Shown here: positions 4,421 to 14,557 of the stretch, one piece after another
Position numbering within the stretch: position 1 is the first letter of the stretch
How the letters are laid out: each line of letters begins with the position of its first letter
DNA from: a virus
Virus genome (UHGV): UHGV-1341758
Reading direction: 5' to 3' (one strand)
Length of the DNA stretch: 14,557 nucleotides
Made by a program: the position numbers and the translations under genes
The notes under the pieces: model-generated
Told to the model about the DNA's origin: nothing
What the model saw: the letters and a program-made list of their open reading frames with translations, nothing else
Databases searched by the model: none

Positions 4421-4660
4421 AGAACAACCCATTATCAAATACAAGGCCCGACATGAAAACGCCAGAAAAAGGCATTTTCGGACACTTTCATGTCGGACAT
4501 TTATGAATGCAATATTAAAAAAAAACAAAAAGTTATATTCGAGAAGTACCGACACGATTTTCCCTGAAAAATTTTCATAAATAGTGAAAAACCGCGAGGT
4601 CGCCGCCCCGTAACCTGTCGGATCGCCGGAAAGGACCCGCAAAATGATAATAATTATCAT
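4421..4660 (-). other. cos packaging site: cosB (R-like sites plus AT-rich IHF-like spacer), cosN, and a putative cosQ side
   Basis: Minus-strand sequence upstream of Nu1 reads GGGCGGCGACCTCGCGGTTTTTCACTATTTATGAAAATTTT, almost identical to the lambda left end/cosN as recalled. Between cosN and Nu1 are repeated TGTCGG/TGTCCGA motifs (about 4446-4457, 4472-4502, 4541-4557) flanking an AT-rich block (about 4501-4540), the R3-I1-R2-R1 layout of lambda cosB. Confidence 0.8.
4597..4608 (-). other. cosN 12-nt cohesive-end sequence (GGGCGGCGACCT on the minus strand)
   Basis: Exact match to the lambda 12-nt cohesive end (recalled), in the expected position and orientation relative to Nu1. Confidence 0.8.
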
Positions 4661-4807
4661 CTACATGTCACAACGTGCATCTACGCCATCAAACCACGTC
4701 AAATAATCAATTATGACGCAGGTATCGTATTAATTGATCTGCATCAACTTAACGTAAAAACAACTTCAGACAATACAAATCAGCGACACTGAATACGGGA
4801 CAACCTC

Positions 4808-5041
4808 ATGTCAACGAAGAACAGAACCCGCAGAACAACAACCCGCAACATCCGCTTTCCTAACCAAATGATTGAACAAATTAACATCGCTCTTGATCAA
4901 AAAGGGTCCGGGAATTTCTCAGCCTGGGTCATTGAAGCCTGCCGCCGGAGACTGTGCTCAGAAAAAAGAGTTTCTCCTGAAGCAAACAAAGAAAAGAGTG
5001 ACATTACTGAATTGCTCAGAAAACAGATCAGACCAGATTGA
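4808..5041 (+). CDS. Small basic protein with ribbon-helix-helix-like N-terminus (possibly DUF3950/YlcI-like); accessory gene on the strand opposite the late operon
   Basis: 77-aa ORF with RNIRFPNQMIEQINIAL, a beta-strand-then-helix pattern typical of RHH DNA-binding proteins. It sits between cos and the lysis genes, opposite in orientation to the late operon. Family assignment is from memory only. Confidence 0.55.
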   Translation: MSTKNRTRRTTTRNIRFPNQMIEQINIALDQKGSGNFSAWVIEACRRRLCSEKRVSPEANKEKSDITELLRKQIRPD

Positions 5042-5097
5042 AGCAATTTAGATAATCGTGCAGACTACGCCCCTCATATCACATGGAAGGTACTACA

Positions 5098-5508
5098 ATG
5101 GCTCAGGTTGCCATTTTTAAACAAATATTCGATAAAGTGCGAAATAATTTAAACTATCACTGGTTTTATTCTGAACTAAAACGTCACAATGTCTCACATT
5201 ACATTTACTATTTAGCTACAGAGAATATTCATCTTGTTCTTGAAAACGATAATACGGTTTTAATAAAAGGACAGGGTAAGGTTGTAAATGTAAGATTTTC
5301 AAAAAATAAATGCCTTATAGAAGCCACCTTAAAAGGATTCAAATCAGGAGAGTTATCATTTTACGAATACAGGAAAAATCTTGCTACAGCAGGGGTTTTC
5401 AGATGGATTACAAATATCCACGAAAACAAAAGGTATTACTATACCTTTGATAATTCATTACTCTTTACTGAGAACATTCAGAACACTACACAAATATTTC
5501 CGCACTAA
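5098..5508 (+). CDS. AT-rich moron protein, possibly DUF1398 (YbcV/YdfO-like); function unknown
   Basis: Coding region is visibly AT-rich (roughly 30-35% GC by eye) against about 50% in the flanks. GGAAGG sits 7 nt upstream of ATG at 5098, favouring this start (136 aa) over the ORF-track start at 5083. Opposite strand to the late genes. Family assignment is from memory. Confidence 0.6.
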
Positions 5509-5764
5509 ATCATAACGTCCGGTTTCTTCCGTGCCAGAACCGGACTCGCTGGCATGATGAAATATGTGTACCCGGTAACCCCGGTGTGCATCGTTTTTGA
5601 TTATTCCCGCACACTCGCGCAGAAGGAGTTCCCCGTCGGGCTACGGTCTCTGTTAATACGGGAATACGGCGACGATACAGCGCATGATGTGTCAGGCTTG
5701 AATACCTTTATCCTTTAAAAGGGATATCAGTTAAGTTATCCCGTGTAGGGTATAAACCATTATC

Positions 5765-5796
5765 AAAGCCACTCTGTAGGAAGTGGCTTTTGTAAT
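5765..5796 (+). terminator. Putative intrinsic terminator for the plus-strand moron transcript
   Basis: Perfect 9-bp inverted repeat AAAGCCACT (5765-5773) / AGTGGCTTT (5782-5790) with an 8-nt loop, followed by TTTTGT. Confidence 0.45.
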
Positions 5797-5800
5797 GGCA

Positions 5801-5825
5801 ATAAAAAGCCCCGCGAATGCGAGGC
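5801..5825 (-). terminator. Putative intrinsic terminator on the minus strand downstream of Rz
   Basis: Minus-strand GCCTCGC-ATTC-GCGGGGC (7-bp stem with one G-U pair) followed by TTTTTAT. It is convergent with the plus-strand hairpin at 5765-5796. Confidence 0.4.
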
Positions 5826-5999
5826 TAAATCCTGGTATTTGTAATGACTGGCTCTTATCTCAACGCAGCCCCTTACCGCGCGCAAAATGCTCAATATCAA
5901 GCATCAGCAATGAGATGTTTAATCTGGATTCACTCCAGAAGTGAGCACCACCCTGTCTACAGAGCCAGATGTGAAGGATGATGAGTAAAATTATCGCTA

Positions 6000-6467
6000 T
6001 CATCGAAGGCATTGCGTCCTGATGTATTCCTGAAGCGTTCTCAGTGCTGTTTGGTCGCGGATAATTCCGTCCCGGATACCGAGAACGTTTCGTCCAGCAA
6101 CTGGAGAGAGTTCGACGGTGGCATCATTGCCCATGCCGGAGGCGCTGGAGGTTTCAGCTGAGGATGGCACAGGGCATTTTCCTTTGACGAGCACCCGACC
6201 ACCATTATCAAGCTTGCGCCGAAGAGCATCATTTTCAGCTTTCGCATCAGCTAACTCCTTCGTGTATTTTGCATCGAGCGCAGCAACATCACGCTGACGC
6301 ATCTGCATGTCAGTAATTGCCGCGTTCGCCAGCTTCAGTTCTCTGGCATTTTTGTCGCGCTGGGCTTTGTAGGTAATGGCGTTATCGCGGTAATGATTAA
6401 CAGCCCATGACAAGCAAACGATGATGCAGATAACCAGAGCGGAAATAATCGCGGTTACTCTGCTCAT
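6000..6467 (-). CDS. Rz: Spanin inner-membrane subunit Rz (i-spanin)
   Basis: First ~83 residues look identical to recalled lambda Rz ([83 protein letters not shown]); the C-terminal half diverges. ATGA overlap with R. Confidence 0.9.
6041..6247 (-). CDS. Rz1: Spanin outer-membrane lipoprotein subunit Rz1 (o-spanin), embedded in Rz in another frame
   Basis: ORF wholly inside Rz in a different frame, with lipobox-like LIMVVGC and a proline-rich segment KPPAPPAW (lambda Rz1 has VVGC and KPPPPPAW). The true start may be an internal Met. Confidence 0.8.
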
Positions 6468-12345: not shown

Positions 12346-13608
12346 TCAGAATCCTCCTTTCTTCTTGGACTGCGGTTCCTCGCGTTCACGGCGGCGCATT
12401 TCAGCAGACTGTTGGTCTGTGTCATAAATAGCGCCATTTGCCTGAATGCAATACACCGTGCCGGTATTGCCATGACGATTGAGGCGAAGGATTAGTTCGG
12501 TTTCACCAGGAGGAACGCTGTCATCAAAAGCACCTTCCCGATGGATCCCAACCCAATAATCGCAATCCTGTTCAATCTGCCCTGTATCTCGTGAGTCACT
12601 TGGTAATGGGCGTTTATTGGTTCGGCTTTCCAGTGCGCGGTTAAGCTGCGTCAGAAGCACAACAACGCAATCAAGCTCTTTGGCAAGGTTCTTCAGTCCT
12701 TTGGTGATCATGCCGTAAGCAAGGTCGTTACGATCGGCCTTCTCAGCGGTCATTAGTGTCAGGTAATCGACCAGAATCATCCCAACACATCCTTTTTCTC
12801 GCTTGATTCGACGGCTTTCGCTGACGATTTGAGCCAGAGATAATCCCGGCGTGTCGTCGATGTAAAGCAGGTCGATTTCACTCAAGCGATTGGCTGTTTC
12901 GATCGCCCTGTTGAAGTCACCATCGTAATCACCCTGATAGCCGTCATCGGCGTCATTTGTCGCCGGAAGGTAAAAAATATTCGGGTTAACACCAGACTTC
13001 TGCCCTACCAGTTTTTCCAGTATCTGGTCACCGGGCATTTCAAGGCTGAACATCAGAGCGGGCTTTTTCTCATGCACTGCGCAGTTGATTGCCATCTGGC
13101 TGTATAGCGTCGTTTTCCCCATCTTAGGGCGAGCGCCAATGACAAACAGAGAGCCTTTCACCAGACCTTTCGGTGACAGCATCCTGTCCAGAGATGGGAT
13201 CCCTGTGCTCATTCCTCGTTGTTCGCCTGACGGGTCAAATCGCTTCTCAAGGTCGCTAACCCAGTCTTCCATGACCTCACCAAATGAGCGAAGGCCGCGA
13301 CGCGATCCGGTTTTTGCATGGTCTGTCAGTTGCGTGAAAATCGCCTGAATAGCTTCGTACTTCTGCGTTGCAGTCATTCCGTTGCGGGAATAGAGCAATT
13401 CCGTCGCTTCAGTCATGCGGTTGATGGCGTAGCGTTCCATTGCGGTTTCACGAACCTGCATTGCATAGGCAACGATGTTTGCTGCGCTTGGCGTGTTCTT
13501 TGCGATCTCAGCGATATAAGCAAAACCGCCAACAGACGCCGTTAACGATTTGCGCTCCAGTTCATCGAAAAGCGTCAGCCCATCTACTGGCTTTTGCTCC
13601 CGGTGCAT
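12346..13608 (-). CDS. DnaB-family replicative helicase, C-terminal ~420 residues (gene appears frameshifted; see 13614-13778)
   Basis: Walker A GARPKMGKT, Walker B-like ILVDYLTLM, and DnaB-like SVGGFAYIAEIAKNTPSAANI and LTQLNRALESR..RP..SD(L/S)R(E/D)(S/T)G.IEQD.D motifs, compared with recalled E. coli DnaB. Confidence 0.9.
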   Translation of the reverse strand: MHREQKPVDGLTLFDELERKSLTASVGGFAYIAEIAKNTPSAANIVAYAMQVRETAMERYAINRMTEATELLYSRNGMTATQKYEAIQAIFTQLTDHAKTGSRRGLRSFGEVMEDWVSDLEKRFDPSGEQRGMSTGIPSLDRMLSPKGLVKGSLFVIGARPKMGKTTLYSQMAINCAVHEKKPALMFSLEMPGDQILEKLVGQKSGVNPNIFYLPATNDADDGYQGDYDGDFNRAIETANRLSEIDLLYIDDTPGLSLAQIVSESRRIKREKGCVGMILVDYLTLMTAEKADRNDLAYGMITKGLKNLAKELDCVVVLLTQLNRALESRTNKRPLPSDSRDTGQIEQDCDYWVGIHREGAFDDSVPPGETELILRLNRHGNTGTVYCIQANGAIYDTDQQSAEMRRREREEPQSKKKGGF

Positions 13609-13613
13609 TCTGG

Positions 13614-13778
13614 TTATTTCTTCGAAAAGGATTGTGGTCGGCTGTAAAATGAATCAGGCTTCAGCATCGCCAGAACTTTCCGGACGCGCTCACTGCTGTC
13701 ATCATCCAGAAGCAATCCACCAATAACCGCCTGCTCTGCCTCGATGCTATGGGGCGGCGCATAAAAATTATCGGTCAT
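13614..13778 (-). CDS. DnaB-family helicase N-terminal fragment (54 codons), in a different frame from the main helicase ORF
   Basis: Manual translation from ATG at 13778: MTDNFYAPPHSIEAEQAVIGGLLLDDDSSERVRKVLAMLKPDSFYSRPQSFSKK*. PPHSIEAEQ.V.GGL.LD and DDFYTRP match the recalled DnaB N-terminus. Start overlaps the O-like gene stop. Confidence 0.7.
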   Translation of the reverse strand: MTDNFYAPPHSIEAEQAVIGGLLLDDDSSERVRKVLAMLKPDSFYSRPQSFSKK

Positions 13779-14529
13779 CGTGTTCACCCTCACGAACTTT
13801 CAGGTAGGTATTGTCGTTAAGCAGGAAATCAAATCCCTTTTTGTGCCAGACGGTTCCGCGTTGATGGTTTGGGCGTTCTTCGAACATCCATCGGCAATTT
13901 TCGCCTACGTAGCTCAAATAATTTCTCCAGTCCTGCATCGTGAACCCATGCCCGTCAAGCTGGCGGGTTATCACTCCGGCTTTGCGCCAGAACGTTCGGA
14001 TCTGGTTTTTACGCTTGTCATTCAGTGCGCGGATTCTTGGCGCTTCAGGAAGGATTTCGTGGTAAGCATCGACAACATCCTGACAGCTAACGGAAGGTTT
14101 TTTCTTGTCAGACTTTTTGTCTGCTGCGGTACTCTCTAATACGTCAGTATTAGAGATAATATTATTATATTCTTTATCTGTGGTAATTTGCTGGTAATCT
14201 GCTGGTACAGTATTGCTTGCAGGCATTGGTATTGCTGGCTTTGAGGTGGTAATTTGCTGGTAATCTGCTGGTACAAAATTTGACTGATAATCGTCATATT
14301 TCTCTACCGAGAAAACTGAGAATTTACCGTGTGAAACCCAGTCAATCATGCCGAGTTTTTTGAACTTTCTAAGCAGGTACTGAACGCGATCTGGTTTGAG
14401 TCCTGTTTCAAACGCCAGAGAGTTTCTACCGCCAAGTAGCTTCCCTCTGCCTACCAGAATTTCTCCTGCGTCAGTCATTACATACTCAGGCGTATGCTTT
14501 GCTTGAATCGCCACGGGTTTAACAGACAC
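13768..14529 (-). CDS. Replication initiator (lambda O-like / iteron-binding origin protein)
   Basis: 253-aa ORF immediately upstream of the helicase, overlapping its start. Contains in-frame DNA direct repeats (iterons) encoding VPADYQQITT twice, followed by an AT-rich stretch, as in lambda ori inside O. The start codon in the ORF track is GTG at 14529; the first ATG is at 14478. Confidence 0.65.
   Translation of the reverse strand: MSVKPVAIQAKHTPEYVMTDAGEILVGRGKLLGGRNSLAFETGLKPDRVQYLLRKFKKLGMIDWVSHGKFSVFSVEKYDDYQSNFVPADYQQITTSKPAIPMPASNTVPADYQQITTDKEYNNIISNTDVLESTAADKKSDKKKPSVSCQDVVDAYHEILPEAPRIRALNDKRKNQIRTFWRKAGVITRQLDGHGFTMQDWRNYLSYVGENCRWMFEERPNHQRGTVWHKKGFDFLLNDNTYLKVREGEHDDR
14180..14275 (-). 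repeat. Putative phage replication origin iterons inside the O-like gene
   Basis: Perfect 30-bp direct repeat GTGGTAATTTGCTGGTAATCTGCTGGTACA at 14180-14209 and 14246-14275, each made of tandem ~11-bp TGGTAAT(T/C)TGC units, with related GGTATTGCTGGC between. AT-rich block (about 14140-14179) lies on the downstream side. Confidence 0.65.
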
Positions 14530-14557
14530 CTCAGAGTCATTTAAGATGGCTTAAAGA

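What the first reader, a model, noticed from the sequence alone, without database searches (positions are those of the whole stretch)
14140..14275. Replication origin embedded in the O-like gene: 30-bp perfect direct repeats of ~11-bp iterons plus an adjacent AT-rich block
Two perfect copies of GTGGTAATTTGCTGGTAATCTGCTGGTACA lie 66 bp apart, in frame (encoding VPADYQQITT twice), each built from tandem ~11-bp subunits, with an AT-rich stretch immediately downstream in the gene's orientation. This is the lambda ori arrangement (iterons within O, then an AT-rich unwinding element), but the iteron sequence is not lambda's, so initiator specificity differs.
Basis: partly seen in the sequence, partly recalled or inferred. 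Interest (0 to 1): 0.45.

Follow-up and report, generated by a model that had tools for sequence, protein, structure and literature searches.

The report
Known phage replication origin, orphaned

Summary
Observation confirmed. There are two perfect 30-bp direct repeats at 14180-14209 and 14246-14275, 66 bp apart and in frame. Each is built of phased 11-bp units. A 20%-GC block follows them in the gene's direction.

The region is 99% identical to phages HK620 and VT2-Sakai. GenBank already marks exactly these two 30-mers there as "rep_origin" and "ori iteron 1/2". A 2021 paper describes the same six 11-bp repeats in phage L gene 18 as its likely origin.

About 90 relatives show selection on the DNA itself:
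- The iterons and the AT block are 90-98% conserved at third codon positions. The spacer and the N-domain are 57% conserved there.
- The iteron type follows the initiator's N-terminal domain, not its C-terminal domain.
- A 10-bp-stem palindrome after the AT block is kept by compensatory changes.

The layout matches ori lambda: iterons, then an AT-rich block, then a palindrome. The initiator is not a detectable lambda O homologue, and its partner is a DnaB-type helicase.

In this window an IS3-family element removes about 55 N-terminal codons of O, and the helicase gene carries a 4-bp frameshift. The origin is therefore probably silent unless both proteins are supplied in trans. I found no biochemical proof of binding or initiation for this origin type.

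The parts
14246..14275 (-). Iteron cluster 1, first in gene orientation. On the gene strand it reads TGTACCAGCAG ATTACCAGCAA ATTACCAC, about three phased 11-bp units.
   Evidence: It corresponds to 'ori iteron 1' of VT2-Sakai.
14210..14245 (-). 36-bp spacer between the clusters. It is coding and free to vary.
   Evidence: Mean pairwise identity among 12 diverged relatives is 0.60, against 0.95-0.98 for the clusters.
14180..14209 (-). Iteron cluster 2, identical to cluster 1 and next to the AT-rich block.
   Evidence: It corresponds to 'ori iteron 2' of VT2-Sakai.
14157..14179 (.). AT-rich block, the presumed DNA-unwinding element. The 40 bp at 14140-14179 are 20% GC.
   Evidence: Third-position identity in relatives is 0.90. 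The block is present at 17-25% GC in all seven lineages examined.
14133..14156 (.). Perfect palindrome TCTCTAATAC-TGAC-GTATTAGAGA, with a 10-bp stem and a 4-nt loop.
   Evidence: As single-stranded DNA it folds at -7.5 kcal/mol, z = -4.8. Nine of 10 pairs show compensatory changes across 10 sequence versions.
13768..14503 (-). 5'-truncated HK022/HK620-type O-like initiator gene. About 55 N-terminal codons are missing. The longest remaining ORF (13768-14529) starts at a GTG inside the IS.
14504..14557 (+). Left end of an IS3-family insertion sequence. It starts TGAATCGCCACGGG, and its transposase orfA begins just beyond the window and reads away from O.
12346..13793 (-). P-like DnaB-type replicative helicase gene, split into 59-aa and 420-aa ORFs by a 4-bp deletion near 13633.

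Best explanation
This is the replication origin of the HK022/HK620/VT2-Sakai/phage-L type of lambdoid replication module. It lies inside the linker-coding part of the initiator gene.

Inferred mechanism: the N-terminal domain of the O-like initiator binds six phased 11-bp sites. These form two clusters of three, 66 bp apart, which is six 11-bp repeat periods. The resulting nucleoprotein complex strains the adjacent AT-rich block, which opens. The initiator's C-terminal domain brings in the phage's own DnaB-type helicase (P/gp12). A strictly conserved 10-bp-stem hairpin or palindrome at the far edge of the AT block is part of the origin, and its role is unknown.

In this window the cis-acting origin is intact, but its initiator gene is truncated by an IS3-family element and its helicase gene is frameshifted. 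The origin should therefore be silent unless a related phage supplies both proteins in trans.

Shown here: the anatomy, identity to annotated origins, DNA-level selection, co-inheritance of iteron type with the N-domain, and both gene disruptions. Inferred: binding, unwinding, helicase recruitment and silence.
For: - The region is 99% identical to records that annotate these 30-mers as ori iterons or rep_origin.
- PMC8022706 calls the homologous six 11-bp repeats of phage L gene 18 its likely origin. It cites genetics showing that the replication region can be exchanged only as a whole.
- All relatives examined (7 phage records and 80 IMG/VR loci) have 11-bp units followed by an AT-rich block and a palindrome. 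Nearly all have two clusters 66 bp apart.
- The 11-bp period is not a multiple of 3, so it cannot be a peptide repeat.
- Third-codon-position identity among 12 diverged lineages is 0.935 and 0.983 in the clusters and 0.90 in the AT block. It is 0.57 in the spacer and the N-domain.
- Iteron type follows N-domain identity and ignores C-domain identity.
- Erwinia phage 59 joins this N-domain and its iterons to a lambda-O C-domain (70% identity, E = 6e-63) and pairs it with a lambda-P-like loader.
- Palindrome covariation: 98% of cells paired, 9 of 10 pairs with changes on both sides, no one-sided changes, and 0 of 500 shuffles reaching the observed score.
- Ori lambda has the same order of elements.
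- Disruptions in the window.
Against: - I found no footprint, gel-shift, plasmid-replicon or initiation-mapping experiment for this origin type in the searchable literature. The database annotations look like inferences from the lambda analogy.
- No usable structural model of the initiator was obtained (pLDDT 43.7), so DNA binding by the N-domain rests on comparative evidence only.
- Identity of the two clusters within a genome could partly reflect gene conversion or unequal crossing-over. Variants with 1, 3 and 4 clusters exist.
- The palindrome was located by searching each sequence for its best inverted repeat, which biases the pairing counts upward.
Confidence: 0.82

Rival explanations
1. 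The repeats are only a duplicated peptide module (VPADYQQITT) in a flexible linker of the protein, with no role as DNA.
For: The repeats are in frame, and the linker tolerates 1 to 4 copies of the 22-codon unit. The low-confidence model shows no secondary structure across residues 105-190.
Against: The substructure has an 11-bp period, which is out of step with codons. Synonymous positions inside the clusters are 94-98% conserved while the coding spacer between them is 57%. The peptide itself changes between lineages (VPADYQQ, CPTDVQR, VPTECQQ) while the DNA architecture and the 66-bp spacing stay fixed.
Confidence: 0.04
2. The repeats do bind the initiator, but for control of O-P expression or copy number (handcuffing or a transcriptional roadblock), and replication starts elsewhere in the phage.
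For: Nobody has mapped initiation in this group, and iterons serve control functions in plasmids (general knowledge).
Against: An AT-rich block and a palindrome lie immediately next to the sites in every lineage and are under DNA-level selection, as in ori lambda. The 11-mer occurs nowhere else in the 14.5-kb window. Genetics cited in PMC8022706 place the phage L origin within the replication-gene region.
Confidence: 0.07
3. The conserved AT-rich and palindrome stretch is a module-junction sequence kept because it promotes recombination between N-domain and C-domain cassettes. It is not an origin element.
For: The mosaic breakpoint between N-domain-plus-iteron types and C-domain types falls in this stretch. 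HK620, HK75 and ST64T share a near-identical sequence from here onward.
Against: A recombination linker would need sequence identity. The palindrome instead exists in at least 7 different sequence versions that all keep perfect pairing. Lambda has an unrelated palindrome at the same position.
Confidence: 0.05

Closest known systems
Origins annotated in phages VT2-Sakai (AP000422, 'ori iteron 1/2'), HK620 (AF335538, 'rep_origin') and HK022, and the six 11-bp repeats in gene 18 of Salmonella phage L (PMC8022706)
   Same: The sequence is 99% identical to VT2-Sakai and HK620 over window 13700-14504, including both 30-mers, the AT block and the palindrome. The architecture is the same as in the phage L/ST64T type.
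   Different: Here the O gene lacks its first ~55 codons because of an IS3-family element, and the helicase gene has a 4-bp deletion. Phage L and ST64T use a different 11-mer, TGTCCAACGGA.
Ori lambda inside gene O
   Same: The origin lies in the linker-coding middle of the initiator gene. The order in the direction of transcription is iterons, AT-rich block, then a palindrome with a 4-nt loop. The initiator has two domains, and its C-domain matches the helicase partner.
   Different: Lambda has four ~18-19-bp iterons with internal dyad symmetry. This origin has six head-to-tail 11-bp units in two clusters. The N-domain is not TIGR01610/PF04492, BLASTP gives E = 4.8, and hhalign gives probability 4%. 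The partner is a DnaB-type helicase rather than the lambda P loader.
P22 gene 18 / gene 12 replication module
   Same: The gene order is the same, the partner helicase is also DnaB-type, and the origin is thought to lie inside the initiator gene (PMC8022706).
   Different: The N-domain of P22 gp18 is lambda-O-like (48% identity). Its repeats are four ~20-bp units (PMC8022706), not 11-mers.

Membership tests
HK022/HK620/VT2-Sakai/phage-L type intragenic origin | Near-identity to sequences annotated as this origin | tested here: met
   99.1-99.5% identity. The annotated iterons map exactly to 14180-14209 and 14246-14275.
HK022/HK620/VT2-Sakai/phage-L type intragenic origin | Six phased 11-bp units in two clusters 66 bp apart, then an AT-rich block, then a 10-bp-stem palindrome | tested here: met
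HK022/HK620/VT2-Sakai/phage-L type intragenic origin | Embedded in an intact cognate initiator gene (phrog_345) followed by an intact DnaB-type helicase gene | tested here: not met
   O is truncated at ~14504 by an IS. P is frameshifted by a 4-bp deletion. The cis element belongs to the family, but the module is defective.
HK022/HK620/VT2-Sakai/phage-L type intragenic origin | The initiator binds the 11-mers and replication starts here | not testable with these tools
   Only comparative support is available: third-position conservation and co-inheritance of iteron type with the N-domain. No experiment was found.
Lambda O / ori lambda family in the strict sense | Initiator N-domain of the phage_O_Nterm family (TIGR01610 / PF04492) | tested here: not met
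   HK620 O has no hit, while lambda O scores 5e-39. BLASTP gives E = 4.8. hhalign gives probability 4% over a 30-residue helix-turn-helix-like stretch.
Lambda O / ori lambda family in the strict sense | Four ~19-bp iterons with internal dyad symmetry | tested here: not met
   Lambda iterons pair as inverted repeats. The units here are head-to-tail 11-mers with no dyad.
Lambda O / ori lambda family in the strict sense | Lambda-P-type helicase loader as partner | tested here: not met
   The downstream gene has DnaB and DnaB_C domains.
Lambdoid 'origin inside the initiator gene' architecture (works-like class) | Iterons, AT-rich block and palindrome in that order within the inter-domain linker of the initiator gene | tested here: met
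   compared with lambda.

The most novel reading that the evidence does not exclude
Two linked possibilities remain open. First, the 10-bp-stem, 4-nt-loop hairpin beside the AT block is kept by compensatory changes in at least 7 sequence versions and is paralleled by a palindrome at the same place in ori lambda. It may be a structural signal extruded on unwinding that positions the incoming helicase. Second, the intact but orphaned origin of this IS-disrupted prophage lineage may still be fired in trans by co-resident phages of the same O type, such as Stx phages. That would amplify a defective prophage whose ORFs for terminase, portal, lysis and Q are uninterrupted and match their families.
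Probability: 0.15. Interest if true: 0.45.

Novelty: already known. Interest (0 to 1): 0.15.

Why it matters
The call itself adds little, because the origin is already annotated in near-identical phages. Three things are useful.

1. Evidence: the comparative data turn a 25-year-old annotation by analogy into a well-supported inference. The data are synonymous-site conservation, iteron type tracking the N-domain, and covariation in the palindrome.
2. Experiments: those data define which bases to mutate.
3. Annotation: this copy should be labelled as a defective replication module, not a working replicon. This matters when judging whether a prophage can be induced. The same O/P type is carried by Shiga-toxin phages.

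Tried and rejected
- Structure prediction of full-length HK620-type O from a single sequence gave mean pLDDT 43.7. That is too poor for a fold search, so none was run.
- The large protein search returned only proteins at least 85% identical among those listed, so no deep alignment could be built for a second model.
- A profile search of PDB sequences found nothing credible (best E = 0.82, ribosomal S19).
- An exact search for the IS/O junction found nothing in GTDB representative genomes or IMG/VR. No complete E. coli genome carries the junction. It was then found on metagenome contigs by looking up the frameshifted helicase product.
- Five literature searches found no binding or initiation experiment for this origin type. 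Miyamoto 1999 (DNA Res 6:235) is not held in the library.
- The match of lambda O to phrog_345 (E = 5e-17) was not taken as proof of homology, because that family may mix mosaic proteins. The direct profile-profile comparison was not significant.

Full report
**Observation.** The + strand carries two perfect copies of GTGGTAATTTGCTGGTAATCTGCTGGTACA at 14180-14209 and 14246-14275, 66 bp start to start. A perfect 30-bp repeat is not expected by chance in 14.5 kb. About 1e8 position pairs times 4^-30 gives roughly 1e-10. The minus-strand ORF 13768-14529 reads ...NFVPADYQQITTSKPAIPMPASNTVPADYQQITTDKEYNN..., so the repeat is in frame, 22 codons apart. Tandem Repeats Finder gives period 11 in both copies. 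On the gene strand each cluster reads TGTACCAGCAG ATTACCAGCAA ATTACCAC. The 11-mer TACCAGCARAT, allowing one mismatch, occurs four times in the window, all of them here, against 0.38 expected. The 40 bp that follow in gene orientation (14140-14179) are 20% GC, against 45% for the gene. Beyond them lies a perfect palindrome, TCTCTAATAC-TGAC-GTATTAGAGA, at 14133-14156. As single-stranded DNA it folds at -7.5 kcal/mol, z = -4.8.

**What it is.** Window 13700-14504 is 99.1-99.5% identical to HK620, VT2-Sakai, mEp235, Stx2 phage 86, CP-1639 and many O157 Stx phages (alignment). In the VT2-Sakai record the two 30-mers are annotated as misc_binding 'ori iteron 1' and 'ori iteron 2', bound by O protein. 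In HK620 they form a two-part rep_origin. These map exactly to window 14246-14275 and 14180-14209. The gene is the HK022-type 'O' (phrog_345, 'replication initiation O-like', E = 9e-69). The gene downstream is a DnaB-type helicase (DnaB_C, E = 2e-60). The rest of the window is an ordinary lambdoid late region on the same strand: nin genes, Q, lysis genes, small and large terminase, and portal. Zaworski et al. (PMC8022706) describe six imprecise 11-bp repeats (TGTCCAACGGA) in gene 18 of Salmonella phage L as its likely origin. They cite genetics showing that the L and P22 replication regions can be exchanged only as a whole. That 11-mer is the one carried by the ST64T relative of this gene, which is 64% identical to HK620 O.

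**Is the repeat selected as DNA?** I collected six diverged phage homologues and 80 IMG/VR loci.

- *Architecture.* Every lineage has clusters of three phased 11-bp units. Nearly all have two clusters exactly 66 bp apart. The exceptions are copy-number variants. Each has an AT-rich block (17-25% GC over 40 bp) and then a perfect 9-10-bp-arm palindrome with a 4-nt loop.
- *Period.* The 11-bp period is not a multiple of three, so the substructure cannot be a peptide repeat.
- *Synonymous sites.* Among 12 diverged lineages sharing the TACCAGCA iteron, third-codon-position identity is 0.57 in the N-domain, 0.57 in the 36-bp spacer, 0.935 and 0.983 in the two clusters, and 0.90 in the AT block.
- *Co-inheritance.* Iteron type follows the N-terminal domain. 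Loci with N-domain identity of 0.82 or more to HK620 all carry TACCAGCA, whatever their C-domain identity (0.46-1.0). HK75 and ST64T have C-domain identity of 0.92-0.99 but N-domain identity near 0.5, and they carry TGTCCAACGG.
- *A natural chimera.* The O of Erwinia phage 59 has this N-domain and its iterons fused to a lambda-O C-domain (70% identity over 124 residues, E = 6e-63). It is followed by a lambda-P-like loader.

This is the division of labour known for lambda O, in which the N-domain reads the origin and the C-domain matches the helicase partner.

**The palindrome.** Ten distinct versions exist, with seven different stems. Ninety-eight percent of cells pair, and 9 of 10 pairs show changes on both sides. 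There are no one-sided (G-T type) changes. None of 500 shuffles reaches the observed score, and pairing falls to 31-52% when partners are slid by 1-3 columns. The absence of wobble intermediates fits a DNA palindrome or hairpin better than an RNA one. One caveat applies: I located the stem by searching each sequence for its best inverted repeat, which favours pairing. Lambda has an unrelated palindrome with 12-nt arms and a 4-nt loop at the same position, after its AT-rich block.

**Relation to lambda.** The order of elements is the same. The iterons differ. Lambda has four ~18-bp units with internal dyad symmetry, and this origin has six head-to-tail 11-mers.

The initiator is not a detectable lambda O homologue:

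- It has no Pfam PF04492 or TIGR01610 hit, while lambda O scores 5e-39.
- BLASTP gives E = 4.8.
- hhalign of N-domain profiles gives probability 4%, aligning only a 30-residue helix-turn-helix-like stretch.
- The N-domain of P22 gp18, by contrast, is lambda-like.

So the origin works like ori lambda but is not a member of the lambda O/ori family in the strict sense.

**This particular copy.** Homology to O stops at about 14504. Positions 14504-14557 are the left end of an IS3-family element, starting TGAATCGCCACGGG. It is multi-copy in E. coli chromosomes and plasmids. Its orfA (HTH_Tnp_1, E = 1e-19) begins about 10 nt beyond the window and reads away from O. In one genome a fragment downstream of an IS30 insertion in this element is annotated ISEc52-like, so I infer that the element may be ISEc52-like.

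About 55 N-terminal codons of O are missing, including the conserved GKGxALxHRxxMDxxxYKDxxAxHLWxHLIL block. The helicase gene has a 4-bp deletion near 13633 that splits it into 59-aa and 420-aa ORFs. None of the 92 loci fetched up to that point has this deletion, and 61 carry the intact sequence. It is probably not a sequencing error: the same 420-aa product is called on 15 contigs from at least four independent sources. Two of those contigs share the identical IS/O junction. The junction is absent from 5,426 complete E. coli genomes, from GTDB representative genomes and from IMG/VR.

The origin DNA itself is intact. The module is defective and should be silent unless O and P are supplied in trans.

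**Limits.** I found no footprint, replicon or initiation-mapping experiment for this origin type. The single-sequence structure model was unusable, and no solved relative exists by sequence. Binding, unwinding and helicase recruitment are therefore inferences from anatomy, comparative genomics and the lambda model as summarised in PMC12663957 and PMC7466680.

**Verdict.** The finding is already known, so interest is low.

Noticed in passing
window 14504-14557: The left end of an IS3-family insertion sequence truncates the O-like gene. The longest remaining ORF starts at a GTG inside the IS, and gene callers report it as a 253-aa product on a metagenome contig.
   Followed up: yes
window ~13633 (P gene 12346-13793, minus strand): A 4-bp deletion frameshifts the DnaB-type helicase gene. 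It is absent from the 92 loci fetched up to that point (61 carry the intact sequence), but the same product occurs on 15 contigs from independent samples. This points to a circulating defective prophage lineage.
   Followed up: yes
window 14133-14156, and the same position in L006-L091: A 10-bp-stem, 4-nt-loop palindrome after the AT-rich block is kept by compensatory changes in at least 7 stem versions. Ori lambda has an unrelated palindrome at the same position. Its function is unknown.
   Followed up: yes
L054, L055 (three clusters), L057 (one cluster), P0002 (321 aa), P0001 (343 aa, four copies): The 66-bp unit (one iteron cluster plus spacer) varies from 1 to 4 copies among near-identical O genes, presumably through unequal recombination between the 30-mers. 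Whether the one-cluster form still replicates is unknown.
   Followed up: partly
L011:586-1536 (Erwinia phage vB_EhrS_59): A natural chimeric initiator has an HK022-type N-domain and iterons fused to a lambda-O-type C-domain. It is paired with a lambda-P-like loader instead of a DnaB-type helicase.
   Followed up: partly
L008 (Salmonella phage ST-29, CP051288.1): The O-like gene in this deposited phage genome is broken into several ORFs by frameshifts (102 aa, 117 aa and others). This is either a sequencing error or a defective gene.
   Followed up: no
window 4660-6000: Between the lysis genes and the small terminase gene lie ORFs on the opposite (+) strand. They include a 141-aa product matching phrog_413 and a 77-aa product matching phrog_949. 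This looks like a moron-like insertion.
   Followed up: no
L003, L004, L005: In three unrelated E. coli replicons the same IS3-family element is itself interrupted by IS30 about 250 bp into orfA.
   Followed up: no
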